A DNA stretch of 64,000 nt from assembly GCA_030645495.1 (NCBI GenBank), contig JAUSLV010000011.1, forward strand, positions 256,659 to 320,658, written 5' to 3'. This DNA is from Actinomycetota bacterium. GTDB taxonomy: Bacteria; Actinomycetota; Acidimicrobiia; Acidimicrobiales; Ilumatobacteraceae. The notes beneath the pieces are model-generated. The model saw nothing but the letters and a program-made list of their open reading frames with translations. It searched no databases and was not told the DNA's origin. A program made the position numbers and the translations under genes. Positions 1-64,000 of this stretch are shown here, piece by piece. Position 1 is the first letter of the stretch; the number at the start of each line of letters is the position of its first letter.

Positions 1-1
1 C

Positions 2-1683: not shown

Positions 1684-1814
1684 TCGACCACTGAGTCACC
1701 CGCCGGGCCACGTGTTCGGCACCGCACATCGAAAGAGGGGTACGGCGGGCGGCCGTGCCCCTCTTCCGCGTCTGCAGCAGGTGCGCGACGGGCTGCGGCG
1801 CTACGGTGCCCTCC

Positions 1815-2468: not shown

Positions 2469-2475
2469 GCCGGGC
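2450..2475. repeat. Direct repeat copy 1 (GGCGGCGCTACCAGCTGAGCCGGGC), covering the last 6 codons, stop and 3' flank of coaE
   Basis: It is an exact 25-nt match to 3348..3373, read directly from the sequence. Coordinates are +/-1. Confidence 0.9.
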
Positions 2476-2516
2476 GACGAACGAAGCTGCGCGCACCCCT
2501 TCGGTACAGTGACGCT

Positions 2517-2786: not shown

Positions 2787-3364
2787 TGGGCCTGGTCGCT
2801 GCTTTTCGCCACGTCGCAACTGCGCTCGAAGCAGCAGCAGTCGACTACGTGGTCGTCGGATCAGCAGCCGCAGCAGCCTGGGGTGTGATTCGCTCCACCC
2901 GAGACATCGATCTGGTGATGGTGGTGACGGAAGGTTCGGCCGCCGCGTTGTTGGAAGGTTTGATCGACGCCGACTTCTATGTCCCCGTCAACGCGGCCGC
3001 CGAAGCACTTGCCGGCGGAGGATCGTTCAATGTCCTGCACCCGGCCACGGGTGGGAAGGTCGACGTCTTCGTCTGCCCGGCGAACGACCAGTTCGAGGTC
3101 CAACGCATTGCGCGCCGGGTTCGGATGGAGGTGTTCGGCGTCGGCTCTTGGGTTGCGACACCAGAGGATGTGGTGTTGTCGAAACTCCGTTGGCGGCTCG
3201 AATCGCAATCCGACGTGCAATGGCGCGACTGCGTCGAGCTTGCTGCGGTGCACACCCTCGACCGCAGGCATCTTCGCGTGTGGGCCGAGCGCCTCGGGAT
3301 CACTCCCGACCTCGACGCGTTGCTCGATCAGGTCGACACCGCTGGTGGCGGCGCTACCAGCTGA
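2786..3364 (+). CDS. nucleotidyltransferase-fold protein (GrpB/UPF0157-like or MNT/MenT-like), 192 aa
   Basis: The sequence VVVGSAAAAAWGVIRSTRDIDLV fits the hG[GS]x9-13DhD nucleotidyltransferase motif. The C-terminal PEDVVLSKLRWRL resembles GrpB. The protein ends ...GGGATS* in the second copy of the repeat. Confidence 0.6.
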   Translation: MGLVAAFRHVATALEAAAVDYVVVGSAAAAAWGVIRSTRDIDLVMVVTEGSAAALLEGLIDADFYVPVNAAAEALAGGGSFNVLHPATGGKVDVFVCPANDQFEVQRIARRVRMEVFGVGSWVATPEDVVLSKLRWRLESQSDVQWRDCVELAAVHTLDRRHLRVWAERLGITPDLDALLDQVDTAGGGATS

Positions 3365-3373
3365 GCCGGGCCA
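3348..3373. repeat. Direct repeat copy 2 (GGCGGCGCTACCAGCTGAGCCGGGC)
   Basis: It is an exact 25-nt match to 2450..2475. It spans the 3' ends of the nucleotidyltransferase gene (+) and of the GNAT gene (-). Confidence 0.9.
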
Positions 3374-4367
3374 ACGCCTCGCCCTCCACCACGTCGCCGG
3401 TGGGCACGAACCCGAAGCGGAGGTAGAGGGGCCGCGGGCTGCCGACGTGTTCGCGGTACGACACGGTGAGGCTGCGAGCGCCGGCCGCCTGGGTGCGCTC
3501 GGCCACCAGTTGCAGTACCTGTGTGCCGATGCCGCGCCGTTGGTGCCGACGGTCGATGAGCAGGCGCCACAGATATGGCTCGTCGGTGAGGTCGTTGCGA
3601 TCCGCCAATTGCACGAAGCCCACCGGCTCGCCATCGGCCTCGATGCCGAGCGACTGCGACACGAATGGCAGGCCGCGTACCTGTAGTGGCACCGCTGCCT
3701 GGGCGAGCGATGCCTCCACCGGGCGCACGAACCGTTGTTGCGAGTGGTGTGTCGCCAATGCCAGGTACGCATCGATGTTGTCGCCATCGAGGGCGACCAA
3801 CCGAACACCGCTCGCCGGCGACAGGGTGCGCTCGCGCCATGCCGCGCGCTGCGGGGCGAGGAGCGAGTAGCGCAGGTCGTCGACCCAGTCGCCGCCGGAG
3901 ATGAACGCATCGTGCACCAGCGACTCGAACTGGAACCCCACCGACTCGACCACCCTCATCGACGCGACGTTGCGCGGGTCGAGCGACGCCTCGAACCGGT
4001 GCACGCCGTGTGCGCACAGCGCATCGACCACAGCGGCAACAGCCTCGCCGGCGAAGGCGTGGCCCTGATGGGCGCGAGCGATCGTGTACCCGACCGTCGC
4101 TGTGCGGCCGTCGACCGACAGGCCGACCGCGACGTCGCCCACCATCTGCCCTGCGTGGTCGACCGCCAACTGCACCCACACCCCTGGTGACGGACCATTG
4201 AGTGCCTCCTGGCTGGCGGCCAGCGCATCCCCGTGACCCTCGGTGTAGGGGAGCGGCCAGTCCTGGTAGTGAGCGACTTCTGTGTCGTTGCGGTAGCCGA
4301 CGAAGGCGGGCAGGTCGGCGGCGCGCAACATCCGCACCGTCAGCCTGGTCGTGTGCAGCGGGAGCAT
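3354..4367 (-). CDS. tandem-GNAT N-acetyltransferase (two GNAT domains)
   Basis: Two acetyl-CoA binding cores are present, including RRGIGTQV, plus a RimL-like N-terminal domain. The supplied ORF extends to 4793 but that part is antisense to uvrB. A start at 4367 or 4400 is chosen. Confidence 0.7.
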
Positions 4368-4393
4368 GACGCGACGATAGCGATGGCACGGCA

Positions 4394-4407
4394 CGAACAT
4401 CCGTTCG
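4394..4407. promoter_or_regulatory. candidate LexA/SOS box CGAACATCCGTTCG (GAAC-N4-GTTC palindrome) immediately upstream of uvrB
   Basis: It matches the actinobacterial SOS-box core TCGAAC-N4-GTTCGA. It lies in the divergent GNAT/uvrB intergenic region. Confidence 0.45.
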
Positions 4408-4415
4408 GCGCTATC

Positions 4416-6443
<2,028 letters not shown>

Positions 6444-6446
6444 GCG

Positions 6447-8114
6447 TCAGACCGCGTTGGCCAGCGGCGCCGACATCATCGGGCCCAGCGAGCCGGCCGG
6501 CTGGGGGACCGCAAACAGGTAGCCCTGGCCCAGCGTGCAGCCGATGCCCACCAGGTGCCCTCGCTGCATCTCGGTCTCGATGCCCTCGGCCACCACGGTG
6601 AGGTGGCCCTTCGTGGCCACTTCCACCATCGCCTGCACCACCGTGCTGGCGCGGTCACCAGCAACCACCTGGGCGGTGAATCGCCGGTTCAGCTTCACGC
6701 CATGGATCGGAAGCGCCGACAGCGTCTCCAGCGAGGCGAACCCCGAGCCGAAGTCGTCGAGCATCAGTTGCACGCCGAGCTCACTGACCTGTGCCAGTTC
6801 TTGGCGCAGTTGCACGGGCAGGTCGGACGCCTGGCGTTCGCTGATCTGCACCATCACGGACCCCGGCCGAATGTCGTGTTTGGCCAGACCTTCGACGATC
6901 GAGTCGAGCACGCTGGTCTCGACCTGTTTGTCGAACTCGAACGTCACGGCCAGCTGGAGCGAGGGGGAGATGTGGCGGAACTCACTGAGCACCGAGAGCC
7001 CGTCGTCGAGCATGCGAACGAACAGCGAACGCAGCAGTCCGGCTTCGCGCAGGGTCGGCAGGAACTCGTCGGGTCCGCGGACGCCTTCGTTGGTCTGCCA
7101 CCTGGCCAGCGCTTCGATCGCCATCACCTCGCCGGAGTGCAGGTTCACGATCGGTTGGAAGTAGGCCTTGATCTCGCCCGCTTCCATTGCATCGACGAGC
7201 GCTGCGGTGTCGGCGGATTTGGCCGTGTCGGTCTCCAGCGGGTGGCGAGTGCTGTCGATCGCGGCTTCTGCGGCGGCGAGTGCGCCACCGAGCCCGGTCT
7301 CGGGTCGGCGTCGGCCGACACCGGTGGCAACCGCCGTGCCCACCACGCCGACCCTGCCGAGTGCCTCGTGAATGCTGCGTGTGAGGCGCTCGGTCGCTTC
7401 TTCGTCGACGCCGATCAGGAGGGCGCCGAACCGATCGCCGGTGAGGCGTGCGGCGTAGTGCCGGCCGGTCAGTACGGCTCGTACTGCAGCGCCGGCGATA
7501 CGCAGTTCCTCGTCACCGGCCGAGTGGCCGTGGAGCTCGTTGTAGTGCTTCAGCTCGGTCAGCTCGATGACGATCACCGATGCCTGCTCGCCGAACTCGA
7601 GGCAGAAGTGGTCGTCGACGCGGACCCGACGCTCCCACCCTTGGCGAGTGCCGAGGCCGGTGAGCGGATCGGTCTCGCCGTCGGCGATCTCGTTGAACCG
7701 ATGCTGGTCGGCGAGGAGGATCTCCGTGTCGGCGAGGGCGCCCAGCAGACTGGCGAACACCTGCAGGGTGGGGGCGATGCTGGCGATGCTGGCCGCCCGC
7801 TCGCGCGGGTCGAATCCGACGAGCTCGCCGAACGGGCTGCCGTCGGGGCACCGCACCGGTGCGCACGCCCAGTGGTCGCTGCTGCGGCTGATCGGGGCGG
7901 GGAGTGTCTCGTGTACGTGAATCTCGCCACGTGGGTCGAACACCGCAAGGGTGTAACTGCCCTCCGCGTCGTACCGGCACAGTGCCCACGTTCCGAGATC
8001 GGAGTGCTCCGAGAGGTGTTGGAGTACGGCCTGCGTGGCGCGACCGAAGTTGCTGTCGGTGCTTGCGCCGATGCTCATGTACTTACTATCGGTGCCGATC
8101 ACGCCCAACTTCAA
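6447..8114 (-). CDS. signalling protein with sensor N-terminus, degenerate GGDEF (TGDRF) and intact EAL domain (likely c-di-GMP phosphodiesterase)
   Basis: [15 protein letters not shown] opens the GGDEF domain and [11 protein letters not shown] replaces RxGGDEF. The EAL domain shows YFQPIV, EALARW and DDFGSG motifs. Confidence 0.75.
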
Positions 8115-28431: not shown

Positions 28432-28515
28432 GTCGAAGTGGCGGAATAGGCAGACGCGCTAGCTTGAGGGGCTAGTGAACTTAGGTTCGTGGGGGTTCAA
28501 GTCCCCCCTTCGACA
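28432..28515 (+). tRNA. tRNA-Leu (anticodon GAG), type II with long variable arm
   Basis: The acceptor stem pairs GTCGAAG with CTTCGAC. The D-arm is TGGCGGAATAGGCAGACGCG. The anticodon loop ttGAGgg sits on a CTAGC/GCTAG stem. A long variable arm and the T-arm GGGGGTTCAAGTCCCCC are present, with discriminator A and no encoded CCA. Confidence 0.9.
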
Positions 28516-28601
28516 CACTGTTTCTGCTGCGGCCGTCCTTCGGGGCGGCTGTTGCGGTTTTCGAGTGCGGGAGTTGACGGCGCCGGCCTGCGGTGGGCCG
28601 G

Positions 28602-28621
28602 GCCATTCCACGTCATTCAGA
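28602..28621. repeat. solo 20-nt copy (GCCATTCCACGTCATTCAGA) of one terminal repeat of the MITE-like element at 60387..60780
   Basis: It is an exact 20/20 match to 60395..60414. It lies about 90 bp downstream of tRNA-Leu. Confidence 0.8.
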
Positions 28622-28676
28622 CTTGGTCGGTCATAGAGCGAAAGGTCGCCGTTCCGAGACTCGCATGAACGTTGAC

Positions 28677-29351
28677 CTATGCGTCAAACCGACGCCAGTT
28701 CCCTTCCGAAACGACGTCGACAGCGCCGTCAACGATGCGGATGGCGGTCTCGTCGTCGGTCGCGTAGGCAGGGCAGTCGAGTTCGGCAGCCCATGTCTCC
28801 GCGTGAGCCAGCGTGTTCTCGGGGAGAGCCTCGTGGTCGAGGTGAGGGAAGATCGAGAAGTCGACCAGGCCGAGCGCCCGGTCGTCGCCGGCGGGCGGCC
28901 TCCACCCGACGAACTCCTTGCCAATGCGCGGTGTCATCACCATGCTGCCCGCGCTCATGCCGATCCACACCGTGTCGTCGAGCTGGGGCAGTAGGTCGGT
29001 CAGCCCGCACTCCCGCATCCAGTGGCACAGGTAGAGCGCGTCGCCGCCCGACACGAGCAGCACGTCGGCCTTGCGTACGAGGGGAACCCACTGTTCCTCG
29101 TCGATGCTGGGCAGCGCGGTCAACTCGATCAACCCCACCGACTTCCAGCCCAGTTCGACCATCGGCTGTTCGGATCGCCCGGCGACGAACTCCCACACGT
29201 TCTCGCCCGGCCCTGCATGGGGATGGCCGTACATCGCAGTAGGGATGCACAGTGCGGCGCACTCCTCGATGGGGCGGCCGAGCATGTCGAGCAGCGCGTC
29301 GTGGATCGTCGCGTTCCTGACGCCGGCCGAGGTGAGCAGCATGCGACGCAT
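28677..29351 (-). CDS. peptidase E / S51-family (type-1 glutamine-amidotransferase-like) dipeptidase
   Basis: VLLVSGGDALYL and IGMSAGSMV (the nucleophile Ser region) resemble dipeptidase E. Confidence 0.7.
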   Translation of the reverse strand: MRRMLLTSAGVRNATIHDALLDMLGRPIEECAALCIPTAMYGHPHAGPGENVWEFVAGRSEQPMVELGWKSVGLIELTALPSIDEEQWVPLVRKADVLLVSGGDALYLCHWMRECGLTDLLPQLDDTVWIGMSAGSMVMTPRIGKEFVGWRPPAGDDRALGLVDFSIFPHLDHEALPENTLAHAETWAAELDCPAYATDDETAIRIVDGAVDVVSEGNWRRFDA

Positions 29352-29386
29352 GTGCGCAGATTGCCCTGACTGAGCGCTGCGCGCAA

Positions 29387-30811
29387 GTGCCGGTTCTCAG
29401 GTGCGAACGTCCCCGTCGAGCCGCCAGCGTCCCGATTCCGGATCGGCAGAACCCCACGGTGCCGGACGGCGCGGGCAACAATGGGGCAGTGAGCGCGTCC
29501 ACCCCGAACGAGACGGTTGGATACGAGACGTTGCCCGACCGTCCACCGTTGGTGACGGCGCTGTTGGTGGTGGTGGTCATCGCCCTCTCCACCTCGGCTG
29601 CTCACTTGTTCCGTGAGTCGGCGTTCTGGGTGATGGAGCGCTTCGGTGAGTCGCACGACGCCACCGCAGCGGCGCGCCACCTGCCGGCGGTGGCCACGTT
29701 CGCCGTGGTGTTCGCCGCGGTGATGTTCGCCGCGTGGGTGGGCTGCAGCGCGGTGCGACGGTACCCGGGCCGGGCGGGCTTGGAGGCGATTGCCGCCACC
29801 GCAGCCGGGCAGGACCGCAACATCTCCACTCGCGCCACCGCGATGCGCACGCTGGGCACATGGGTGATGACCGTCGGGCTGGTGCCCATCGGGCGTGAGG
29901 CGGCGATCATCGAGACGGGCGGCGCGATCGGCTCGGGGCTCGCACGGCGGTTCCGCGGCCGAGGCGCAGCCATGGCGACGGCCGGCATCGCTGCCGCCTT
30001 CGCCACGGCATACCACGCGCCGCTCGCCGCCATCGTGTACGTGGAGGAGCACCTGCGCGTGCGTGGCAGCCGCCGCGCCACCGCGTTCACGGTCTGTGGC
30101 GCGGTGGGCGGCTTCTTGCTGGCCGTCACCGTGTTCGACACCCGCGCCGTGCTGCCCATCACGTACGCCGACTGGCGCGACCAACTGGCGGCAGGCGCGA
30201 TCGTCGTGGTTCCCGCGGCCCTCGCGGCGCGGCTGTTCCTGGAAGTGCGGTCGCGGCTCGCCGCGCTGCGGACCGGCCGAGTGATCACCACACGCTTCCG
30301 CCTGGTGACCGCGCTGGCGGGAGCGACACTGGCCGGGCTGATGGTGGCCTGCTGGCCGCGCAGCGCGGGCAACGGGATGGACGTGCTGCGCCACATCGCA
30401 CCGTCGACGCAGCTCGTGGGCGCGGTGGTGGTGGCGATGCTGGTGGCCAAGCTGGTCGGCACGTCGGCCGTCTTCGCGACGGGTGCGCCGGGCGGCGCGC
30501 TCACGCCCACGATCGTGATTGGTGCCGGCGGGGCGCTGGCGCTGGCGATGGCCGTATCGGCGCTCGGCTGGGGCACGCCTGACATCTGGACGATGGTGGT
30601 GCTCGCCGGCGCCGTGGCCGTTGCGGTGAGCCTGCGCGCACCGCTGACCGCAGTGGTGCTGCTGCCAGAGCTGACCGGCCGCTACTCGTTGGTGCCCGCC
30701 TGCGCGGTGGCGGTGGCGCTCGCGGTCGGCCTCGACCGCGTGATCGACCTGGGGCTGCGCAGCCGCCTACGCGGGGCTGCCGCCGGTGCCGTGTTCGACG
30801 AGGACGGCTGA
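29387..30811 (+). CDS. ClC-family voltage-gated chloride channel / H+-Cl- antiporter
   Basis: It is polytopic. GREAAIIETGGAIG resembles the GxEGP selectivity region, with GIAAAFATAYHAPLAAIVYVEE and LLPELTG also present. The start is uncertain. Confidence 0.7.
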   Translation: MPVLRCERPRRAASVPIPDRQNPTVPDGAGNNGAVSASTPNETVGYETLPDRPPLVTALLVVVVIALSTSAAHLFRESAFWVMERFGESHDATAAARHLPAVATFAVVFAAVMFAAWVGCSAVRRYPGRAGLEAIAATAAGQDRNISTRATAMRTLGTWVMTVGLVPIGREAAIIETGGAIGSGLARRFRGRGAAMATAGIAAAFATAYHAPLAAIVYVEEHLRVRGSRRATAFTVCGAVGGFLLAVTVFDTRAVLPITYADWRDQLAAGAIVVVPAALAARLFLEVRSRLAALRTGRVITTRFRLVTALAGATLAGLMVACWPRSAGNGMDVLRHIAPSTQLVGAVVVAMLVAKLVGTSAVFATGAPGGALTPTIVIGAGGALALAMAVSALGWGTPDIWTMVVLAGAVAVAVSLRAPLTAVVLLPELTGRYSLVPACAVAVALAVGLDRVIDLGLRSRLRGAAAGAVFDEDG

Positions 30812-55187: not shown

Positions 55188-56042
55188 GTGGGCGCGATGT
55201 CGCTCACGCCGCCGGGTTGGTACCCCGATCCGTATGCAGGGCCCGGTGCCGTGCGGTACTGGACCGGCGCGGCCTGGACCGCACAGGTGGCCGTGCCCGC
55301 GGCGCTCGGCCCAGCGCCGCCGCGTGCCACTCCGCCCCACCCCACGCTGCCGCTGCCGGTGGCCGTGGGAGCGATCCTGTCGGTCGGCGTGCCACTGGTG
55401 TTCAGCCGCTACGTGCTGCGCGCCCTTGCCGACCAGAAGTGGCCGATCGCGGTCTACGTCGCGCTGCTCGCAGTGGTGGCCTACGGCCCGCCGTTGGTGT
55501 TCTGGCGCTACGCCAGCCGGCGTTGGGGCACCGGCAGCCCGCGCGCCGACGTGGGGCTCACCGGGCGCTGGGCGGATGCTGGCTGGGGGCCGCTGACCTG
55601 GCTGGCGTGCGTGGGCGCGCAACTACTGGTGGGCAGCATCGTGCTGGCCACCAAGATCCCGATCCAGAACAACACCGACCAGATCCGCGATGCACGCGAC
55701 AACCCTGGCTACGTGATCCCGATGCTGATCGTCGCCGTGATCGCCGCCCCGATCGTGGAGGAGATCGTGTTCCGCGGCCTCGTGCAGCGTGGCCTGCTGT
55801 CGGTGATGCACCCGGCGGTGGCGGTGGGCGTGCAGGCGGTGCTGTTCGGTGGCGCGCACTTCGACCCGGCGCGGGGTACCGGCAACATCGGGCTGGTGAT
55901 GGTGCTCAGCGGTGTGGGCGCCGTGCTGGGCGGGTCGTCGTACCTGTTGCGCCGCCTGGCGCCGAACATGATCGCCCACGCGATCATCAACAGCGTGGCG
56001 ATGGCGATCGTGCTGTCGGGCTGGACGCCCGGCAACAACTGA
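55188..56042 (+). CDS. CPBP-family intramembrane metalloprotease (CAAX protease-like) with N-terminal DUF2510-like PPGWYPDP module
   Basis: EEIVFRG and FGGAHF are the Abi/CPBP motifs. The N-terminus carries LTPPGWYPDPYAGPGAVRYWTGAAWT. Confidence 0.7.
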   Translation: MGAMSLTPPGWYPDPYAGPGAVRYWTGAAWTAQVAVPAALGPAPPRATPPHPTLPLPVAVGAILSVGVPLVFSRYVLRALADQKWPIAVYVALLAVVAYGPPLVFWRYASRRWGTGSPRADVGLTGRWADAGWGPLTWLACVGAQLLVGSIVLATKIPIQNNTDQIRDARDNPGYVIPMLIVAVIAAPIVEEIVFRGLVQRGLLSVMHPAVAVGVQAVLFGGAHFDPARGTGNIGLVMVLSGVGAVLGGSSYLLRRLAPNMIAHAIINSVAMAIVLSGWTPGNN

Positions 56043-56054
56043 GGGCGTGCCCGG

Positions 56055-56900
56055 TCAGGCCGCCAGCAGCACGTTGTCGATCAGCCTCACGTCGCCGAAC
56101 CACACGGCCGTGACCGCGACTGCCCGGTCAGCGATCGTGGTGAGTGGTTGCAGCGTGTCGGGGTGCACGATCTCCAGGTGCTCGAAGCGGGCGAGTGGCT
56201 CGGCGAGCACCACCGAGCGGGCGAGCGCTGTCAGCACGGTGGTGTCGTGCTCGCCGCCGGCCAGCGCGTCGGCGAGCGCCCGCAGTGACCGGGGCACACA
56301 GATGGCCGCGGCGCGCTGTTCGGCGGTCAACCGGCGATTGCGACTGGACAACGCCAGTCCGTCGGCCTCGCGGATGGTGGGAAGGCCGATGAGCTCGATC
56401 CCCATGTCGAGGTCGGCGGTCATCCTGCGGATGATCGCCAACTGCTGGAAGTCTTTCTGCCCGAACACGGCCACGTGCGGGCGGGCGGCGCCGAACAGCT
56501 TGGCGACCACCGTGGTGACACCGCGGAAGTGGCCTGGGCGCTGCGCCCCTTCCAGCACGTCGGCCAGTGCGCCGGGCTCGACGTGTGTCTCGAACCCGGT
56601 GGGATACATCGCGTCGGCAGCCGGCGCGTACACGGCATCGAGGCCGTGTGCACGGCACATTGCGAGGTCGTCGTCGATCGGCCGCGGGTAGGTGGTGAAG
56701 TCGTCTGGCCGGTTGAACTGCAGCGGGTTGACGAAGATCGACATCGCCACCACATCGGCGTGGCGGCGTGCCTCGGCGACGAGCGCGAGGTGTCCTTCGT
56801 GCAAGGCCCCCATGGTGGGTACCAGGCCCACGCGCCGGCCCGCCACGCGTTGCGCATCGCTCCACGCGGAGAAGGCAGCTGGCGTGGTGAAGACCTGCAT
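56055..56900 (-). CDS. panC: pantoate--beta-alanine ligase
   Basis: The HIGH-like motif GLVPTMGALHEGH and FVNPLQFN are present. Confidence 0.92.
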   Translation of the reverse strand: MQVFTTPAAFSAWSDAQRVAGRRVGLVPTMGALHEGHLALVAEARRHADVVAMSIFVNPLQFNRPDDFTTYPRPIDDDLAMCRAHGLDAVYAPAADAMYPTGFETHVEPGALADVLEGAQRPGHFRGVTTVVAKLFGAARPHVAVFGQKDFQQLAIIRRMTADLDMGIELIGLPTIREADGLALSSRNRRLTAEQRAAAICVPRSLRALADALAGGEHDTTVLTALARSVVLAEPLARFEHLEIVHPDTLQPLTTIADRAVAVTAVWFGDVRLIDNVLLAA

Positions 56901-57766
56901 CAGTGGAAGCTGTGCGCGTCGTCGGGCCAGATGCCCTCACGAACCTCACTGACGAACGCCTCGGTGGCCTGGATGGCCGCGTTGCGCAGGTCGGCGTATT
57001 GCTTGGTGAACTTCAGCGACAGTTCGCTGAGGCCCAACACGTCGTGCAACACCAGCACTTGCCCGTCGCAATCGGGCCCCGCTCCGATGCCGATGGTGGG
57101 GATCGAGAGCTTCTGCGTGATCTCCTTGGCGAGATCGCGCGGGATGCCTTCGATCACGACGGCGAACGCGCCCGCCTGCTCGACTGCATGCGCGTCTTCC
57201 AGCAAGCGCTCGCGACCGCCGGCCTCGAAGCCGCTCTTCTTCCCTTGTACCTTGTGCCCACCCATACGGTGGTAGCTCTGGGGGGTGAGGCCGATGTGGC
57301 CCACCACCGGGATGTCGACGCGGGTGATCGCCTGGATGGTGTCGGCCATCACCATGCCGCCCTCCAGCTTCACGCACTCGGCGCCTTCCTTCATCAGCCG
57401 GATCGAGCTCTCCACCGCCTGCTGCGGGCTGACCTGATAGCTGCCGAACGGCAGGTCGCCGACGATCATCGCCTTGGGTTGCGAGCGAGACACGAGGCGC
57501 ACGTGGTACGCCATCTCGTCGAGCTCGACCGGGATCGTGTTGGCGGTGCCCTGCACCACCATTCCCACGCTGTCGCCCACCAGGATCATGTCGACACCGG
57601 CGAGGTCGACGAGCCGCGCGAAGGTGGCGTCGTACGCAGTGATCATCGTGATCCGCTGCTCGAGCGCCTTCATGCGACCAAGGTCGGGAACAGTGACCTT
57701 GCCGCGCTCCCCGTGCGTCGTAGTGGTCATGAAGAGATTGCCTCCCTCGACCGGGGTGCCCATCAC
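56900..57766 (-). CDS. panB: 3-methyl-2-oxobutanoate hydroxymethyltransferase
   Basis: ITMITAYD and LVGDSVGMV are present. The gene abuts panC. Confidence 0.92.
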   Translation of the reverse strand: MMGTPVEGGNLFMTTTTHGERGKVTVPDLGRMKALEQRITMITAYDATFARLVDLAGVDMILVGDSVGMVVQGTANTIPVELDEMAYHVRLVSRSQPKAMIVGDLPFGSYQVSPQQAVESSIRLMKEGAECVKLEGGMVMADTIQAITRVDIPVVGHIGLTPQSYHRMGGHKVQGKKSGFEAGGRERLLEDAHAVEQAGAFAVVIEGIPRDLAKEITQKLSIPTIGIGAGPDCDGQVLVLHDVLGLSELSLKFTKQYADLRNAAIQATEAFVSEVREGIWPDDAHSFH

Positions 57767-57784
57767 CCCGACGCGATGCGAAAC

Positions 57785-58831
57785 CTAGTCAATCAGGGCG
57801 CGGTTGGGAAAGCGCGTGTACGCGCCCGGGCACAGGTCGCGGTAGGCCGGTGCCGTGCCACGGCGCACAGCCTCGACCACGGCATTCGTGCAGGCGGCAG
57901 CGAACGCCTCGGCGCCGGCCTCGAACACCGCGTTGAGCCAGTGCAGCCGCGCCCGAGTGGTCAACGCGGGGTCGGCCGGTGGCGGAGCCTGATCGCGGCC
58001 GGTCGCAACGCCGAACACGACATCGCCATCGAGCAGCGAATGCACCGGGCGGATGGCGCGGGCCATGCCGTCGTGAGCGACCGTGGCGAACCGCGAGCAT
58101 TGCGCCTTGGTGAGCGCAGCGGTGGTGGCGACGACACCGATCGTGGTGTTGAGCGCCGGCACGGTGCTGGCGAAGTGCTGGCGCAGGGCCGCACGCTGGT
58201 CGGCCGGAGGGTGGCGCAACCGTTCCGCGCCAGGCATCCAGGGCAGCCCGCTCTCGGGATCGATCACGCTGCCGGCAGAGTTCACCACCGCCAGCGCGCT
58301 CACCACCGTGCCACTCGGCAGCGTGACGCTGGCCGTGCCGATGCCACCCTGCAAGCCCTTCGAAAGCGTCCCCACGCCAGCGCCGATGGAGCCGTTCGCG
58401 AACGCTCGGCACCTGGCGGCAGCGGCCGCGCGGCGGCCGAACGACTCATCGGGGCGGTTGGCGAACGCTCCACCGCGACCGAGATCGAAGATCACTGCAC
58501 CGGGCACGATCGGCACCACCTCGCTCGGCTGTTGGCCGACGGGGAAGCCGATGCCCTTGGACTCGAGGAACGACATCACACCGCCGGCCGCGGCGAGGCC
58601 GAACGCGCTGCCGCCGGTGAGGCAGATCGCGTTGGCGAACGGGATGGTGGCGGTGGGGGAGAGCAGGTCGGTTTCGCGTGTGCCCGGACCGCCGCCGCGC
58701 ACGTCGACACCCGCCACGCAGCCATCGGGGAGCAACACCACCGTGGTGCCCGTGCACCAGCCGCGGCCGATCCGTTGGTGGTGGCCGACGGCCACACCCG
58801 GCACGTCGGTGAGGCAGCCGGATCGGTTCAT
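57785..58831 (-). CDS. P1/S58-family peptidase (DmpA/L-aminopeptidase D-Ala-esterase-amidase-like)
   Basis: An ArgJ/DmpA fold is present with the self-cleavage GS/T site (LTGGSAFGL). The start is chosen at MNRSGCLTD. Confidence 0.7.
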   Translation of the reverse strand: MNRSGCLTDVPGVAVGHHQRIGRGWCTGTTVVLLPDGCVAGVDVRGGGPGTRETDLLSPTATIPFANAICLTGGSAFGLAAAGGVMSFLESKGIGFPVGQQPSEVVPIVPGAVIFDLGRGGAFANRPDESFGRRAAAAARCRAFANGSIGAGVGTLSKGLQGGIGTASVTLPSGTVVSALAVVNSAGSVIDPESGLPWMPGAERLRHPPADQRAALRQHFASTVPALNTTIGVVATTAALTKAQCSRFATVAHDGMARAIRPVHSLLDGDVVFGVATGRDQAPPPADPALTTRARLHWLNAVFEAGAEAFAAACTNAVVEAVRRGTAPAYRDLCPGAYTRFPNRALID

Positions 58832-58844
58832 CGGCCGCCGCGGT

Positions 58845-59627
58845 TCAGGAAGCCGTGCTGTGCTCGGCAGCGGCCGCCTGCTGGTGCTGGTCGCTGCCAC
58901 CGCCGAACGTGCGCCACACGCCCACGCCGACGATGTACATCGGGCACACCACGATGAGGTACTGCGCAACCTCGTTGTGGTTCGGCAGGTCGGCGGTCAT
59001 CGCCAGCATGATCGCCAACCAGGCGATCGTGACGGTGACGGTGACCGGCCGGAACCGGCGCACCTGCATCGGGTGCAGGAACTTCCAGTTGGTGAGCTGC
59101 GTGAGCGCCAGCGCGACGCAGATGACGCCGGTGACCCACGGCTTGGAGTCCAACAGGAAGAGCGTGGGCACGATCATGTTCCACTCGCACGGGAAGCCGT
59201 TGAAGAAGTGGTCGTCGGTCATCTGGTCGGTGCGCGACATCCACAGCGCCGACATGAACAGCACGAATGCGCCGATCACCAGCGACCAGCCCTCGGGCAA
59301 CATGCCGAAGCGGTGCATGAACAGCACGGGGATGACGATGCACGTGACGAAGTCGATGATCAGGTCGAGGGTGTAGCCGTCGATGCGCGGCACGTGCGTG
59401 CTGACCGCCCAGGCGCGGGCGGCCGGCCCGTCGATGCCGTCGAGGATCATCGCCACGGCCAGCCAGAGGATGGCCTCCTTGGCATCGCCGTCGGCGACGG
59501 CGATCAGACCGAACATGCCGCACACGGCGCCGAGCGCGGTGAAACAGTGCACCAGGTAGCCCTTGAGCACCGGGTGGCTGAGTGTGGTGACCGGCTGGGA
59601 GGCCGAATCAGGGGTTGGGGTGGACAT
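58845..59627 (-). CDS. CDP-alcohol phosphatidyltransferase-family protein
   Basis: DGIDGPAARA is the DG(x)2AR...G...D motif. The protein is polytopic. Confidence 0.7.
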   Translation of the reverse strand: MSTPTPDSASQPVTTLSHPVLKGYLVHCFTALGAVCGMFGLIAVADGDAKEAILWLAVAMILDGIDGPAARAWAVSTHVPRIDGYTLDLIIDFVTCIVIPVLFMHRFGMLPEGWSLVIGAFVLFMSALWMSRTDQMTDDHFFNGFPCEWNMIVPTLFLLDSKPWVTGVICVALALTQLTNWKFLHPMQVRRFRPVTVTVTIAWLAIMLAMTADLPNHNEVAQYLIVVCPMYIVGVGVWRTFGGGSDQHQQAAAAEHSTAS

Positions 59628-59729
59628 ACCGTCGTGGCTCGTCTCGCTGGGGCCGCCCCGCCAGGCAGCCATTCGGCTCACATGCTAACGCCGACAGCGG
59701 ATAGCCGGGTGCAGGTAGGGTGGCCCACC

Positions 59730-60368
59730 ATGCGGCATCGAGCGCGGGCGGTGGCCTACCGAATCGGCGGCGAGTGGATCCGGCGCAGCTGGGGCTGGCT
59801 CGGCCGGGTGGCGGCGATCGGGGCCAACGACCGTGCCGGCCGGCGTTTCGGCCGCTTCGGGCAGGGCAGCATCATCTGCTTCCCGCACAACACGATCTTC
59901 AACGAGCGCTACATCCACATCGGGTCGGCCACGATGATCGGGCCCCACGCCACGCTGTCTGCAGGGATGATGCCCGGCCAGCAGTGTCTCTCCGACCCGG
60001 TCGTGCGCATCGGGGATCGATGCCTCATCGGCAAGGGCAGCGGCATCGTCGGCCACTTCAGTATCGACATCGGCGACGACGTCTGGACCGGCCACCACGT
60101 GTACATCACCGACCAGAACCATGGCTACGAGGACATCACCGTCCCGATCTCGCAGCAGACCCAACCCGAGCAGGCCGTCAGCATCGGCAACGGCTCGTGG
60201 CTGGGGTACGGCACGGTGGTGCTCCCCGGGGCGAAAATCGGCGAGCACGTCACGATCGGGGCCAACTCGGTGGTCACCGGCGAGATCCCCTCGTTCAGCG
60301 TCGCCGTCGGCGCGCCCGCGAAGGTGATCCGCCGGTACGTGGAGGGTGAAGGCTGGGTGCGGGCGTAA
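59730..60368 (+). CDS. hexapeptide-repeat (left-handed beta-helix) O-acetyltransferase
   Basis: Repeated [LIV]GxxxxI hexapeptides are present (IGDRCLIGKGSGIVG, IGNGSWLGYGTVV, IGEHVTIGANSVV). Confidence 0.75.
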   Translation: MRHRARAVAYRIGGEWIRRSWGWLGRVAAIGANDRAGRRFGRFGQGSIICFPHNTIFNERYIHIGSATMIGPHATLSAGMMPGQQCLSDPVVRIGDRCLIGKGSGIVGHFSIDIGDDVWTGHHVYITDQNHGYEDITVPISQQTQPEQAVSIGNGSWLGYGTVVLPGAKIGEHVTIGANSVVTGEIPSFSVAVGAPAKVIRRYVEGEGWVRA

Positions 60369-60386
60369 CGCGGCCGGCGCCGGCGC

Positions 60387-60780
60387 GTTGTGGCGCCATT
60401 CCACGTCATTCAGATTCCGCCGAGCCGGCCCAGGGCTTGTGGGGCTGGATCGCTCCGAAACCCGGGACAGGCCGAGAACGGCATCGACGCCGAGTGCCCT
60501 GCCGGTGCCGAGGCGCCAGCTGTGGTGCAGCGGCTCGACGAGGCCGCCTTCTCCATCCAGGACGGCGTCGACGAGGGGGCCCCATCATTTGACGACACAC
60601 AGCTGCGTTTCGGAAGGCGCGAGCTGCGGCCGCATGGGCGAGCCTGGAGATCGACGACTCGTTCAGTGGGTGTTCAGCGGCGGTCTCGAAGCAGTCCACT
60701 CGTTCGAGCACGGCGAGCTGGTGATCCTCGGCGCCTTGCGGCCATGACGTATCGAAATCTGAATGAGGTGAAATGGGGCC
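60387..60780. mobile_element. MITE-like non-autonomous element of about 394 bp with imperfect terminal inverted repeats of about 28 bp
   Basis: The left end GGCGCCATTCCACGTCATTCAGATTCCG (60391-60418) is the reverse complement of CGAAATCTGAATGAGGTGAAATGGGGCC (60753-60780) at 24 of 28 positions. The ORFs inside it are low-complexity and not credible. Confidence 0.6.
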
Positions 60781-60826
60781 ACCGGGTGCGGGCCGAGCGC
60801 TTCGCTGCCGACCCGCCGGACCGGGT

Positions 60827-61396
60827 CTAGTTGGGCTGCAAGTAGCGGCTGAGGTCGCCAGGAGGCGAGCACAGCGGCACTTCGTTGCCCTTCACCCCGG
60901 CGGTGAAGTCGGTGATCACGTTCGTGACCGGCCCGCCCCCCACCACCGTTTCCGAGTAGTCGATGTTGCGGCCCTCACGCAGGGCTGCGGTGTACTCGCG
61001 CCGATCAGCGATCACGATCCGGTAGTTCTCCTCGAACGTCGCCAGCCGCGTGCGGTCGTCGTCGTTGTCCACCGGGATGGCCACCAGGTCGGTGACCATC
61101 TGGTCGAGGATGTCGGTTGCCTGGTCGGCGAGATCGGCACGCTGCGCCATCTGCTCGGGGGTCGGCTCAGTGATGAAGCCCTGCTCGGTGTCGGCGAGGG
61201 CCACGACCGCGGCATCCGCGGCGGCACAGATCTTCAGTGCCTGTGGGCGCCAACTGGAGTCCTCGATGCGGTAGACGCCCTTGTCGTCGGACAGGAAGAT
61301 GGCGAAGATCCACATTGCGGCGACGGCGAGGCAACCAACCGCCAGCACGATCTTGACCCACAGCTTGCCCTTGGGCGCCTCGTCGGCGGCAGTCAC
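60827..61396 (-). CDS. membrane-anchored hypothetical protein (N-terminal TM, periplasmic domain)
   Basis: The GTG start overlaps the DoxX stop (GTGA). The supplied ORF is longer at the 5' end, but that part is Arg/His-rich antisense junk. Confidence 0.5.
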   Translation of the reverse strand: MTAADEAPKGKLWVKIVLAVGCLAVAAMWIFAIFLSDDKGVYRIEDSSWRPQALKICAAADAAVVALADTEQGFITEPTPEQMAQRADLADQATDILDQMVTDLVAIPVDNDDDRTRLATFEENYRIVIADRREYTAALREGRNIDYSETVVGGGPVTNVITDFTAGVKGNEVPLCSPPGDLSRYLQPN

Positions 61397-61929
61397 TCGG
61401 CCGCCTTCGTCGGGGGACGGTAGCTCGTTGCCAGCTGAGCGAGGCCGCCACCGATGCCGAGGCCGGCGGCGATGACCAGACCCCACCACTCCTTGAACTC
61501 GATGTCGAGCGCGTGGTCGAGCGACCACCGGCTGGTGGGCAGCGTGGCCACGACCAGGGCGACCACCAGGATCGACATGCAGTACTCCCAGCCTTGGTTG
61601 GGCTTGAAGACGAAGAAGCCCACCTTCCAGTGCTCGGTCCAGATGGCGACGAACATGATGCCGACGATGCCGGCCGCGGCCAGCGGGGTGAGGAGGCCGG
61701 CGGCGAACATCAGGCCGGCGCCGACCTCGGTGGTGGCCGCGATCCGGGCCTGCCACTTCGGCCACTTCATCCCCATCGATCCGAACCAGCGAGCGGTGCC
61801 GGCGAGGCGCCCGCCGCCGAAGAACTTGTTGTAGCCGTGTGCGGCGAGGAACACGCCGAACACGACTCGAAGCGCAAGGACTGCGATGTCGTACTGCTGC
61901 ATGGGCGAAAGGCTACGGCGGTGACGCCT
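61393..61929 (-). CDS. DoxX-family membrane protein
   Basis: Four TM segments and DoxX-like VFGVFLAAHGYNKF are present. The supplied ORF extends 5' in antisense to the ABC gene. Confidence 0.75.
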   Translation of the reverse strand, partial: RRHRRSLSPMQQYDIAVLALRVVFGVFLAAHGYNKFFGGGRLAGTARWFGSMGMKWPKWQARIAATTEVGAGLMFAAGLLTPLAAAGIVGIMFVAIWTEHWKVGFFVFKPNQGWEYCMSILVVALVVATLPTSRWSLDHALDIEFKEWWGLVIAAGLGIGGGLAQLATSYRPPTKAAE

Positions 61930-61983
61930 GACCCGCATATTTCGTGGTCGCACGGCGCCTTCCTGCTGGTAGAACACGAGCGC

Positions 61984-63762
61984 ATGGGGGACGGAACGAT
62001 CATTCCAGAGGCAGGCGGTCGCCTGCGGCAGGCGTTCCGGCTGGTGCGCGCGCTGGTGCGGCACCAGAAGCGCACGTTCTTCACCGCCGTCAGCGGCGCG
62101 GCGGTGTTCGCGGCATGTACCGTCCTGTCGGCGGTCGTGGTGCGGATGATCACCGACGAGGTGATCGATCCCCGCTTCCGTCAGGGGTCGGTCGCGGCTT
62201 CCAAGGTGCTGATCGTGCTCGGCGCGTTGATCCTGTTGGGGTTCGTGCGCGCCGCCGGCGTCGTGGTGCGTCGCACGTGGGCCTGGCGCACGATGTGGCG
62301 GGTGGTCGACTCGCTGTCCGGCGAGGTCGTCGACCAACTGGCACAGCAACCAGTGCCGTGGCACCGCACGCAGAGCACCGGCGACCTGATCACCCGGGCC
62401 GGCGTCGACGCCGAAGCGGCGACGGCCGTGCTGTCGCCTCTGCCGTTCGCGTCCGGCGTGGTCGTGCTCGTTGGGCTGTCCAGCGTGCTGCTCTTGGTCA
62501 CCGACCTGTGGCTCGGCCTCGCCGCCGTTGCGGTGTTCCCCGTGGTGATCATCGTCACCCTGCGCTACCAGAAGCGGGTCGACTCGTTCTACGACGCAGC
62601 CCAGAACGAACTCGGCCGGCTCAGTGCTGCTGTGCACGAGAGCTTCGACGGGGTGTCCGTGGTGAAGTCGTTCGGGGCTGAGGGTCGCGAAACCGAACGT
62701 CTGGCCGTGATCGCCAGCCGGCTCCGTGAGGCACGGCTCAGCGCCGTCCGTCTTCGCAGCACGTTCGAGGCGCTGCTCGACGGCCTGCCGACCGTGGTGA
62801 ACATCCTGCTGCTCGTGGGCGGGGCCTACCGGGTGCGCTCGGGGGCGATGACCGTGGGCGAATTGACCAGCTTCATCTACCTGTTCACGCTGTTGGTCTT
62901 CCCCCTGCGGATCATCGGCTATGCGCTGTCCGAGGTGCCGCACTCACTCGCCGGCTGGAACCGCATCCGCTCGCTGCTCGACCAGCCGGTTGCCCCCGAC
63001 CCGTCGCTCACGCTGGCGCGCAGCCCGGATCGCAGCGTCGTGCTGAACGACGTGCACTTCAGTCACGATGGCGAGCGTGAGGTGCTCACCGGCGTGAACG
63101 CCCACATCGAGGGGGGTTGCACCACCGCCGTCGTCGGGGCCACCGGCAGCGGCAAGACCACGCTGCTGCACATCATCGCCGGCCTCATGCCCGTCGGGGC
63201 TGGGTCCGTAGCGGTACCCGACGGTGGCGTGCGGCTGGTGTTCCAGGAGCCGTTCCTCCTCGCCGGTTCTGTGCGCGAGAACGTGGCGCTCGGCGCCGAC
63301 ATCGGCACCGATGCGATCGAAGCCGCGCTCGCGGTCGCCGAGGCGAGTTTCGTGCACGACCTGCCCGACGGACTGAACACCGAGGTCGGTGAACGTGGGG
63401 TGGGGCTGTCGGGCGGCCAACGCCAACGGCTCGCGCTCGCTCGGGCGCTGGTGCGCCAACCGGCGGTGCTGTTGCTCGACGACACGACGTCGTCACTCGA
63501 CCCCACCACTGAGGCCAAGGTGTTGGCCAACCTGAAGTCCGTGCTGGTGCGCACCACCGTCATCGCTGTCGCCAGCCGTCCCTCCACCATCGCACTAGCC
63601 GACGACGTGTTGTTCCTCGACGAGGGCAGGGTGGTGGCCCACGGACGCCACGACGAGCTGCTCTCCACCGTGCCGGCCTACCGTCGGTTGATCGAGGCGT
63701 TCGAGCACGACCGTGCCGCGCTCGATGCGGCGGCGGCGACGCCGGTGGGGGTCGAGCCATGA
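61984..63762 (+). CDS. ABC exporter, fused permease/ATP-binding protein (CydD/MsbA-type)
   Basis: Six TM segments are followed by a nucleotide-binding domain with GATGSGKTT, LSGGQRQR and LLLDD. An internal ATG start at 61984 is chosen. Confidence 0.85.
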   Translation: MGDGTIIPEAGGRLRQAFRLVRALVRHQKRTFFTAVSGAAVFAACTVLSAVVVRMITDEVIDPRFRQGSVAASKVLIVLGALILLGFVRAAGVVVRRTWAWRTMWRVVDSLSGEVVDQLAQQPVPWHRTQSTGDLITRAGVDAEAATAVLSPLPFASGVVVLVGLSSVLLLVTDLWLGLAAVAVFPVVIIVTLRYQKRVDSFYDAAQNELGRLSAAVHESFDGVSVVKSFGAEGRETERLAVIASRLREARLSAVRLRSTFEALLDGLPTVVNILLLVGGAYRVRSGAMTVGELTSFIYLFTLLVFPLRIIGYALSEVPHSLAGWNRIRSLLDQPVAPDPSLTLARSPDRSVVLNDVHFSHDGEREVLTGVNAHIEGGCTTAVVGATGSGKTTLLHIIAGLMPVGAGSVAVPDGGVRLVFQEPFLLAGSVRENVALGADIGTDAIEAALAVAEASFVHDLPDGLNTEVGERGVGLSGGQRQRLALARALVRQPAVLLLDDTTSSLDPTTEAKVLANLKSVLVRTTVIAVASRPSTIALADDVLFLDEGRVVAHGRHDELLSTVPAYRRLIEAFEHDRAALDAAAATPVGVEP

Positions 63763-64000
63763 GCGAGCCCATCAGCCGCTGGACCGCGGTCGAGACGATC
63801 GGCCGTGGTGTGCGCGCCGCTCCGGCACTGCGCACCGGCTTCGCGCTCACCCTCTGGCTGGCGCTGGTGGGTGCCGGCGGCCGCGTGGTCATCCCAGTCC
63901 TGGTGCAACAGGCAATCGACCGCGGCTTCACCGAGTCGGGTGTGAAGGTCGGCATCATCACCGTGATGGCCATCGTCGCGGTCGTGCTCGTGTCAGTGGC
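63759..64000 (+). CDS. ABC exporter permease/ATPase partner (5' fragment, continues beyond window)
   Basis: An ATGA overlap links it to the upstream gene. The N-terminal TM region is MSEPISRWTAVETIG... Confidence 0.7.
   Translation, partial: MSEPISRWTAVETIGRGVRAAPALRTGFALTLWLALVGAGGRVVIPVLVQQAIDRGFTESGVKVGIITVMAIVAVVLVSV

What the first reader, a model, noticed from the sequence alone, without database searches (positions are those of the whole stretch)
60387..60780. MITE-like element of about 390 bp with imperfect terminal inverted repeats of about 28 bp, between an acetyltransferase gene and the DoxX operon
GGCGCCATTCCACGTCATTCAGATTCCG at 60391-60418 and its near-perfect reverse complement at 60753-60780 bracket a non-coding-looking segment with only low-complexity ORFs. 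This matches a miniature inverted-repeat transposable element or a foldback RNA locus. It occupies the only sizeable intergenic region in the last 10 kb.
Basis: seen in the sequence. Interest (0 to 1): 0.6.

Follow-up and report, generated by a model that had tools for sequence, protein, structure and literature searches.

The report
Orphan MITE-like insertion between convergent genes
A roughly 450-bp non-coding stretch with inverted-repeat arms was inserted, in this uncultured actinobacterium only, at the point where two convergent genes overlap in its relatives; it looks like a small, low-copy mobile-element relic and is of modest interest.

Summary
The inverted repeat is real. Five relatives (85-86% nt identity in the flanking gene for the four with DNA) have no intergenic DNA here. 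Their acyltransferase and downstream gene overlap by 4 bp (CTAG). The window therefore carries a lineage-specific insert of 453-462 bp. An independent Logan assembly contains the same insert.

The empty-site sequence CGGGCCTAG appears on both sides of the insert, as CGGGCGTAA on the left and CGGGTCTAG on the right. This is a candidate imperfect 9-bp target duplication that regenerates both stop codons.

The insert shows no coding signal, and its longest ORF has no protein relative. It has no Pfam, NCBIfam, PADLOC or Rfam match and no phage or plasmid DNA match. A third copy of the arm core (20 of 20 nt) sits at 28602-28621, just inside another lineage-specific junction after tRNA-Leu.

Scans of 185,579 species genomes, JGI metagenomes and IMG/VR found the core only at chance level. 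No family, no autonomous partner and no genome-wide copy count could be established. The arms lie 23 and 41 nt inside the insert ends.

Verdict: a MITE-like, non-autonomous insertion (confidence about 0.55). It is an orphan, low-copy new member of a known kind, of low to moderate interest.

The parts
60369..60821 (.). Inserted non-coding element, 453 bp and 68% G+C. By the strictest homology break the insert is 60365-60826 (462 bp).
   Evidence: blastn of relative L019: positions 1-4638 match window 55721-60367, and positions 4631-7790 match window 60822-63952. Relatives have a 4-bp CTAG overlap instead. The identical sequence is present in the Logan contig L021. No coding signal. No protein, RNA or DNA match.
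60392..60419 (+). Left inverted-repeat arm, GGCGCCATTCCACGTCATTCAGATTCCG
60753..60780 (-). Right inverted-repeat arm; the reverse complement is GGCCCCATTTCACCTCATTCAGATTTCG, 24 of 28 identical to the left arm
60360..60368 (+). Left copy of the candidate target duplication, CGGGCGTAA. It carries the acyltransferase stop codon, now TAA.
   Evidence: The empty site in L019 is CGGGCCTAG. Eight nt of L019 align to both sides of the insert.
60822..60830 (+). Right copy of the candidate target duplication, CGGGTCTAG. It carries the stop (CTA on the + strand) of the minus-strand 189-aa gene.
60355..60364 (+). Left copy of a perfect 10-bp direct repeat, GGGTGCGGGC (the last codons of the acyltransferase). 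Unexplained.
   Evidence: (D4). This 10-mer occurs only once elsewhere on the + strand of the window.
60784..60793 (+). Right copy of GGGTGCGGGC, immediately outside the right arm. It is followed by 28-33 nt (60794-60826) that are not accounted for.
28602..28621 (+). Solo third copy of the arm core, GCCATTCCACGTCATTCAGA, 20 of 20 identical to the left arm. It lies 86 nt after tRNA-Leu(gag) and before the 3' end of a minus-strand peptidase S51 gene.
   Evidence: Homology of relatives L054, L055 and L056 downstream of the tRNA ends at window 28555-28563.
59730..60368 (+). Flanking hexapeptide-repeat acyltransferase, 212 aa, with an intact C-terminus ...GWVRA*
60827..61396 (-). Flanking 189-aa gene with no Pfam family; intact, convergent with the acyltransferase; DoxX follows on the same strand

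Best explanation
The segment is a lineage-specific insertion of a small, non-autonomous, MITE-like mobile element of about 453 bp.

Shown: the DNA was inserted where the stop codons of two convergent genes overlap as CTAG in relatives. The overlap sequence now occurs on both sides of the insert. Both genes therefore keep intact ends, and the acyltransferase stop is TAA, one transition away from TAG. The element carries no gene. A 28-nt inverted repeat lies near its ends, and the repeat core recurs at a second lineage-specific junction 32 kb away.

Inferred: a transposase encoded elsewhere in the genome, or now lost, bound the arms. It inserted the element with a staggered cut of about 9 bp. 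The solo copy after tRNA-Leu would then be the truncated end of a second copy. In its present position the element probably does nothing beyond separating the two genes.
For: Insertion polymorphism:
- Five relatives have the 4-bp CTAG overlap and no spacer: the P0003, P0004, P0005 and P0009 contigs and L046. The four with DNA are 85-86% nt identical to the window in the acyltransferase gene.
- The window and the independent Logan contig L021 both carry the insert.

Candidate target duplication:
- L019 positions 4631-4638 align to both window 60360-60367 and 60822-60829.
- The sequences are CGGGCGTAA and CGGGTCTAG against the empty site CGGGCCTAG.

Inverted arms:
- 24 of 28 positions match, and it is the only such pair in the window.

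Non-coding nature:
- No third-position GC signal.
- The 146-aa ORF that spans the insert has 0 relatives among 1.84 billion representative proteins.
- The insert ORFs tested have no Pfam, NCBIfam or PADLOC match.

Second copy of the arm:
- A 20 of 20 match at 28602-28621, confirmed by a profile search (E 7e-9).
- It lies 39-47 nt inside another point where synteny with relatives breaks.
- Both sites are 3'-3' intergenic regions.

Size, arm length and duplication length fit the published ranges for prokaryotic MITEs: 50-800 bp, arms of at least 10-15 bp, duplications of 2-10 bp (PMC11602168).
Against: - The arms are not at the very ends. 23 nt lie outside the left arm and 41 nt outside the right arm, and these outer stretches are not convincingly complementary (p about 0.08).
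- The duplication is imperfect (6 of 9 between the copies) and short enough that chance is not excluded (my estimate is about 1e-3).
- A second, perfect 10-bp direct repeat (GGGTGCGGGC, 60355 and 60784) and the 28-33 nt after its right copy are not explained by a single simple transposition.
- No other copy and no transposase with these ends was found in 185,579 species genomes, JGI metagenomes, IMG/VR, plasmids or phages.
- None of the ten ORF products from 29-42 kb scanned against Pfam is a transposase or integrase.
- Only 64 kb of the source genome could be searched, so multi-copy status is unproven.
Confidence: 0.55

Rival explanations
1. The segment is the decayed remnant of a small gene cassette, for example a toxin-antitoxin-like unit such as the DUF6036 nucleotidyltransferase cassette at 2.5-3.4 kb. 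That cassette would once have been inserted between the two convergent genes. On this reading the 'arms' are leftover fragments of coding sequence rather than transposase-binding ends.
For: - A similar event is visible in the same window. An ~896-bp, two-ORF cassette with a DUF6036 gene (Pfam E 1.9e-6) lies between convergent coaE and GNAT genes, flanked by a 25-bp perfect direct repeat that duplicates their overlapping ends.
- The fourth-best profile match to the arm lies inside that DUF6036 gene (3202-3230, E 0.053).
- Window 60782-60813 aligns to 3275-3311 of the same gene on the same strand and in the same order (1 of 1000 shuffles).
- The peptides NLNEVKWGH..RVRAERF resemble SDVQWRD..RVWAERLG, and both motifs are conserved in that family.
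Against: - Profile tests fail. hhalign of a 7-sequence family alignment against two of the insert's + strand ORFs gives probability 0.1%.
- hmmsearch with the family profile against all six frames of the window ranks insert peptides at noise level (E 32).
- BLASTP E-values are 2-5.
- In a whole-window gapped DNA scan the DUF6036 region is the top hit but only narrowly (40.6 against 36.4 for the next).
- The left-arm and solo-copy queries do not rank it near the top.
- The insert shows no residual codon-position signal.
Confidence: 0.2
2. The segment is foreign or rearranged DNA captured once by illegitimate or microhomology-mediated recombination at CGGG, with no dedicated transposition machinery. 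The repeated motif would reflect the sequence of the donor.
For: - Short matching sequences (CGGG, GGGTGCGGGC) lie at and near the junctions.
- The arms are subterminal.
- No family members were found anywhere.
- The G+C content (68%) equals that of the host, so a donor of similar composition, possibly the same genome, is plausible.
Against: - It does not explain why the same 20-nt core sits just inside a second independent lineage-specific junction.
- It does not explain why the insert carries that core twice in inverted orientation.
- No donor sequence is present in the window.
Confidence: 0.15
3. The segment is a functional structured RNA or regulatory locus (a foldback RNA, a small RNA, or a bidirectional terminator for the convergent genes).
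For: - It lies between two convergent genes.
- The arms can pair, and folding is slightly better than shuffles (z -2.2 and -2.7).
- A G+C-rich palindrome, CCGGCGCCGG, follows the new stop codon.
Against: - No Rfam match at E up to 1.
- No promoter-like or terminator-like sites.
- It is absent from every relative examined, so there is no conservation and no covariation to test.
- The relatives function with overlapping stop codons and no spacer.
Confidence: 0.05

Closest known systems
Prokaryotic MITEs (for example Correia elements of Neisseria, RUP of Streptococcus pneumoniae, MITEAba12, and the Tn3-derived TIMEs)
   Same: It is small (453 bp, within the 50-800 bp range) and has no transposase. 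It has inverted-repeat arms longer than 15 bp, lies in an intergenic 3'-3' position, and shows presence/absence polymorphism between relatives. It also has a candidate short target duplication (PMC11602168; own knowledge for the named examples).
   Different: The arms are 23 and 41 nt from the ends. The duplication is imperfect. Only one full copy plus one solo arm was seen. No sequence relative and no parent IS were found in any collection, whereas the named families are multi-copy and have recognisable parent IS or Tn3-family ends.
REP / REPIN elements mobilised by RAYT transposases (PMC3116915, listed but not read; description from own knowledge)
   Same: The repeated short motif is found in extragenic spaces between convergent genes, once as an inverted pair.
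   Different: The motif is not itself a palindrome. The arms are 333 nt apart, whereas REPINs are compact doublets with a much shorter spacer. No RAYT gene was looked for outside the window.
Small gene cassettes inserted at overlapping convergent gene ends with duplication of the overlap, such as the DUF6036 cassette at window 2476-3371
   Same: It uses the same kind of target, two convergent genes with overlapping stops. It has the same outcome: both gene ends are regenerated by a flanking direct repeat.
   Different: That cassette has a 25-bp perfect repeat, two intact ORFs and no inverted arms. The element studied here has no ORF with relatives, a 9-bp imperfect repeat and 28-nt inverted arms.

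Membership tests
MITE (miniature inverted-repeat transposable element) | Small size, 50-800 bp in prokaryotes | tested here: met
   The insert is 453-462 bp, defined by comparison with the empty site in relatives. Size range from PMC11602168.
MITE (miniature inverted-repeat transposable element) | Terminal inverted repeats of at least 10-15 bp | tested here: inconclusive
   A 28-nt inverted repeat with 24 of 28 matches is present. It lies 23 and 41 nt inside the insertion boundaries, and the outer stretches pair only weakly.
MITE (miniature inverted-repeat transposable element) | Target-site duplication of 2-10 bp flanking the element | tested here: inconclusive
   The empty site CGGGCCTAG is present on both sides, as CGGGCGTAA and CGGGTCTAG. 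Each copy matches the empty site at 7-8 of 9 positions, and the two copies match each other at 6 of 9. A competing perfect 10-bp repeat, GGGTGCGGGC, also exists.
MITE (miniature inverted-repeat transposable element) | No transposase or other coding capacity | tested here: met
   No codon-position signal. No Pfam, NCBIfam or PADLOC hit for the insert ORFs tested. 0 relatives of the 146-aa ORF among 1.84 billion proteins.
MITE (miniature inverted-repeat transposable element) | Multiple copies in the genome | tested here: inconclusive
   The 64-kb window holds one full element plus one solo arm. The rest of the 501-kb source contig and genome could not be read. No related copies were found in the public collections.
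MITE (miniature inverted-repeat transposable element) | Presence/absence polymorphism at orthologous sites | tested here: met
   Absent from five relatives and present in the window and in L021.
MITE (miniature inverted-repeat transposable element) | An autonomous partner IS with matching ends | tested here: not met
   The arm core was found only at chance level in genome, metagenome and viral collections, with no flank similarity. None of the ten ORF products from window 29-42 kb scanned against Pfam is a transposase or integrase. The rest of the source genome was not testable.
REP / REPIN | A short (20-40 nt) palindromic unit, as compact inverted doublets | tested here: not met
   The 20-28-nt motif has no internal palindrome. 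The arms are 333 nt apart.
Known RNA families (Rfam 15) | A match to a covariance model | tested here: not met
   0 matches at E up to 1 over 59500-62000 on both strands.
DUF6036 nucleotidyltransferase pseudogene | A detectable profile match of a translated frame to the family | tested here: not met
   hhalign probability 0.1% for the two + strand ORFs tested. hmmsearch with the family profile on all six frames gives noise only. Only weak DNA-level resemblance.

The most novel reading that the evidence does not exclude
This lineage may harbour an undescribed kind of small mobile unit that targets the overlapping stop codons of convergent gene pairs and duplicates the overlap, so that both genes survive. 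It would be seen twice in this window. The first case is the 453-bp non-coding element at the acyltransferase / 189-aa gene pair, with a 9-bp repeat. The second is the ~896-bp DUF6036 cassette at the coaE / GNAT pair, with a 25-bp repeat. The 20-28-nt motif shared by the arms, the solo copy after tRNA-Leu and (weakly) the DUF6036 gene would then be the recognition or recombination sequence of that system.
Probability: 0.1. Interest if true: 0.5.

Novelty: new member of a known kind. Interest (0 to 1): 0.2.

Why it matters
If the reading is right, this is a clean, datable example of mobile DNA landing on a 4-bp stop-codon overlap of two convergent genes and being tolerated because the target duplication rebuilds both gene ends. 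It would also mark an uncharacterised, apparently lineage-restricted repeat family in uncultured Ilumatobacteraceae-like Actinomycetota, a group with few described mobile elements. It does not change any open question. Its practical value is as a strain marker and as a seed for finding the parent transposon in the complete genome.

Tried and rejected
1. Known RNA: Rfam at E up to 1 gave nothing.
2. Hidden gene: Pfam, NCBIfam and PADLOC on the insert ORFs gave nothing. phmmer of the 146-aa ORF against 1.84 billion representatives gave 0 hits.
3. Phage or plasmid origin: sensitive blastn against 72,556 plasmids and 50,697 phage records gave no match.
4. Family search by the degenerate 19-mer CCATTYCACSTCATTCAGA:
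   - 16 hits in genome contigs, 23 in metagenome contigs and 1 in viral contigs.
   - All are single hits, and the genome hits come from unrelated taxa.
   - The genome and metagenome hits have chance-level flank identity. The single viral hit was not examined further.
5. Source genome beyond the window: an exact-protein look-up returned only a 2.2-kb Logan contig. The DoxX look-up found nothing.
6. Interior similarity to the rest of the window: there is none beyond the 20-mer.
7. Promoters, terminators and tandem repeats: none.
8. Integrated island bounded by the direct copies at 28602 and 60395: rejected, because 55.7-60.4 kb is syntenic with relatives.
9. Synteny of the solo copy through its peptidase S51 neighbour: that gene sits in unrelated contexts in relatives, so it was uninformative. 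The SecG/tRNA-Leu side worked instead.
10. Decayed DUF6036 gene: not supported by profile tests.
11. Ancestral 11-codon C-terminal extension of the acyltransferase (…VRAERFAADPPDRV*), which would make GGGTGCGGGC a 10-bp target duplication:
   - The 33 nt are in frame, with 10 of 11 G/C third positions.
   - C-terminal tails do vary in the family.
   - No relative carries this tail, so it remains open rather than adopted.
12. Resemblance of the ends to IS66 (GTAA) or Tn3 ends, recalled from memory: the orientation and the right end do not fit, so it was not pursued.

Full report
**Observation**

Its partner is at 60753-60780 on the other strand, and 24 of 28 positions are complementary. The repeat finder extends the pair to 41 nt at 78% (60379-60419 / 60753-60793).

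I scanned the whole window for inverted pairs with at least 24 of 28 matches and 20-600 nt spacing. This is the only one. In 25 first-order Markov simulations of the window the best pair had 21-23 matches. Taken alone, the repeat is therefore only just beyond chance for a 64-kb search.

Two independent facts make it convincing. Both arms lie inside a stretch that comparison with relatives defines as an insertion (see below). The arm core GCCATTCCACGTCATTCAGA also recurs, 20 of 20, at 28602-28621 (blastn-short E 2e-5). A profile built from the three copies gives E 7e-9 to 1e-9 for them.

**Context**

The window comes from an uncultured Actinomycetota MAG. Some of its more distant relatives are annotated as Ilumatobacteraceae. 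The 212-aa hexapeptide-repeat acyltransferase (59730-60368, +; Pfam Hexapep) is 100% identical to a protein of a 501-kb NCBI MAG contig.

Downstream, on the minus strand, lie a 189-aa gene with no Pfam family (60827-61396) and a DoxX gene. The two flanking genes converge, so the 458-bp gap is a 3'-3' intergenic region. Its G+C content (68%) is that of the genome.

**It is an insertion**

I fetched the orthologous locus from relatives whose acyltransferase is 91-92% identical in protein. The four with DNA are 85-86% identical in DNA. In every case the acyltransferase and the downstream gene overlap by 4 bp, with the two stop codons sharing CTAG, and there is no spacer:
- L017, L018 and L045 (P0005 and P0004);
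- L019 and L020 (P0003);
- the P0009 contig, from gene coordinates only;
- L046 (P0002), whose contig ends 27 nt past the stop, already inside the downstream gene.

blastn of the closest relative, L019, matches window 55721-60367 and then resumes at 60822-63952. The window therefore carries 453-462 bp that the relatives lack. The insert is not an assembly artefact of the MAG, because a Logan contig of run SRR13727526 (L021, 2189 bp) is identical across both junctions.

**Junctions**

Eight bases of L019 (positions 4631-4638) align to both sides of the insert. The left side reads CGGGCGTAA (60360-60368), the right side reads CGGGTCTAG (60822-60830), and the empty site reads CGGGCCTAG.

This is the classical signature of a target-site duplication of about 9 bp, although it is imperfect here (6 of 9 between the copies). 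It explains simply why both genes are intact:
- The left copy keeps the acyltransferase stop, now TAA, one transition from TAG. The last codon changed from GCC to GCG, which is synonymous.
- The right copy keeps the CTA stop of the minus-strand gene.
- The acyltransferase C-terminus (...GWVRA*) is the same as in P0003.

On this reading the element is 60369-60821.

There is a complication I could not resolve. A perfect 10-bp direct repeat, GGGTGCGGGC, lies at 60355-60364 (the last codons of the acyltransferase) and again at 60784-60793, immediately outside the right arm. The 10-mer occurs only once elsewhere on the + strand of the window.

If that repeat were the true duplication, the element would be 60365-60783 with its right arm terminal. 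The 33 nt at 60794-60826 would then have to be ancestral. They are in frame with the acyltransferase (…VRAERFAADPPDRV*, ending at the shared TAG) and have G or C at 10 of 11 third positions. C-terminal tails of 0-16 residues do occur in this family. However, no relative has this tail. I leave this open.

**Content of the insert**
- The frame plot shows no third-position G+C signal between 60400 and 60760, in contrast to both flanking genes.
- The 146-aa ORF that spans the insert (60390-60830) has no relative among 1.84 billion representative proteins.
- None of the insert ORFs tested hits Pfam, NCBIfam or PADLOC.
- There is no Rfam match at E up to 1.
- There are no sigma-70-like promoters, intrinsic terminators or tandem repeats.
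- Sensitive blastn against plasmids and phages finds nothing.
- Single-strand folding is only modestly better than shuffles (z -2.2 and -2.7). The predicted long-range pairing is between the arms.

**The third copy**

The solo core at 28602-28621 lies 86 nt after tRNA-Leu(gag) (28432-28516). It lies 56 nt before the stop of a minus-strand peptidase S51 gene. This is again a 3'-3' space.

I obtained the secG / tRNA-Leu locus from relatives through SecG. Their homology to the window runs through the tRNA and its hairpin and ends at 28555-28563. After that point all four sequences differ, and different genes follow. The solo core therefore lies 39-47 nt inside a lineage-specific junction, compared with 26 nt for the left arm at the main site.

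Gapped alignments hint that similarity between the solo copy and the arms extends beyond the core:
- A shared GGCGCCGGC lies upstream of both the solo copy and the left arm.
- GTCAT..AAGG.CGCC follows both the solo copy and the right arm.

Both are only at p about 0.05. No inverted partner of the solo copy exists in the window. None of the ten ORF products from 29-42 kb scanned against Pfam is a transposase or integrase.

**Is there a family?**

I scanned three collections for the degenerate 19-mer CCATTYCACSTCATTCAGA, which fits all three copies:
- Genome contigs (185,579 species): 16 hits;
- Metagenome contigs (JGI): 23 hits;
- Viral contigs (IMG/VR): 1 hit.

All are single hits, and the genome hits come from unrelated taxa. 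This is about the number I expect by chance. Where I checked the flanks (the genome and metagenome hits), flank identity to the window copies is at chance level. The single viral hit was not examined further.

The motif is therefore unknown outside this MAG. The source genome itself is evidently not in those collections, and I could read only 64 kb of it. The decisive copy count was not possible.

**A lead that did not hold**

The fourth-best profile match to the arm (E 0.053) lies inside a DUF6036 nucleotidyltransferase gene at 2756-3364 (Pfam E 1.9e-6). In addition, 60782-60813 aligns to 3275-3311 of the same gene, on the same strand and in the same order (1 of 1000 shuffles). The peptides look alike: NLNEVKWGH..RVRAERF against SDVQWRD..RVWAERLG. 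Both motifs are conserved in the family. This suggested that the insert might be a decayed cassette of that family.

I collected six homologues by tblastn on plasmids, aligned them (A1) and tested the idea:
- hhalign against two of the insert's + strand ORFs gives probability 0.1%.
- hmmsearch with the profile on all six frames of the window finds the real gene at 4e-74 and insert peptides only at noise level.
- In a whole-window gapped DNA scan the DUF6036 region is the top hit for the right end, but only narrowly (40.6 against 36.4). It is not near the top for the left end or the solo copy.

I keep this as a rival at 0.2, not as the explanation.

**Mechanism and verdict**

Shown:
- a lineage-specific insertion placed on a stop-codon overlap;
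- the overlap sequence present on both sides;
- no coding capacity;
- inverted arms near the ends;
- a further copy of the arm at another novel junction.

Inferred:
- cut-and-paste or copy-in transposition by a transposase supplied in trans, with a staggered cut of about 9 bp;
- selection that tolerated the event only because the duplication restored both gene ends;
- a solo copy that is a truncated second insertion.

This fits the published definition of prokaryotic MITEs in size, arm length, duplication length and lack of a transposase (PMC11602168). Membership is incomplete, because the arms are subterminal, the duplication is imperfect, multi-copy status is unproven and no parent element is known.

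I rate it a new, orphan member of a known kind, with confidence 0.55 for the MITE-like reading. The rivals are a decayed cassette (0.2), a one-off illegitimate capture (0.15) and a functional RNA (0.05). Interest is low to moderate (0.2).

Noticed in passing
window 2451-3371: A perfect 25-bp direct repeat, GGCGGCGCTACCAGCTGAGCCGGGC (2451-2475 and 3347-3371), flanks a segment of about 896 bp with two small + strand ORFs. These are an 89-aa ORF (2517-2786) and a 202-aa DUF6036 nucleotidyltransferase (2756-3364; Pfam E 1.9e-6; weak PADLOC AbiEii hit, E 0.0098). The repeat duplicates the overlapping 3' ends of convergent coaE (1755-2468) and a GNAT acetyltransferase gene (3354-4793, minus strand). 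It looks like a toxin-antitoxin-like cassette inserted at a convergent gene overlap. I did not check whether relatives lack it.
   Followed up: partly
window 28517-29390; loci L047-L052, L054-L056: The region after tRNA-Leu(gag) is a hypervariable junction. The window and three relatives share the tRNA and its hairpin, then each carries different genes. The window's peptidase S51 gene (28677-29351, minus strand) is 89-91% identical in DNA to genes in L047 and L052. The homology stops at about the gene boundaries, and those copies sit in unrelated neighbourhoods, which suggests gene-sized shuffling.
   Followed up: partly
window 3202-3230 (minus strand): A weak fourth match to the arm profile (nhmmer E 0.053) lies inside the DUF6036 ORF: GCGCCATTGCACGTC against GCGCCATTCCACGTC in the arm. 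It covers the conserved S-D-V-Q-W-R-D codons of that family. It is possibly chance.
   Followed up: yes
window 60370-60388 and 60811-60826: Two G+C-rich palindromes lie at the two ends of the insert. One, CGGCCGGCGCCGGCGCG, comes right after the new TAA stop. The other, ACCCG-CCGGAC-CGGGT, comes right before the shared CTAG. Their role, if any, is unknown.
   Followed up: no
loci L017/L019/L045 vs window 57785-58840: The peptidase S58 gene between panB and the 278-aa membrane gene is present in the window and in L019. It is absent from L017 and L045, where panB is followed directly by the 260-aa gene. This is another presence/absence difference in the neighbourhood.
   Followed up: no
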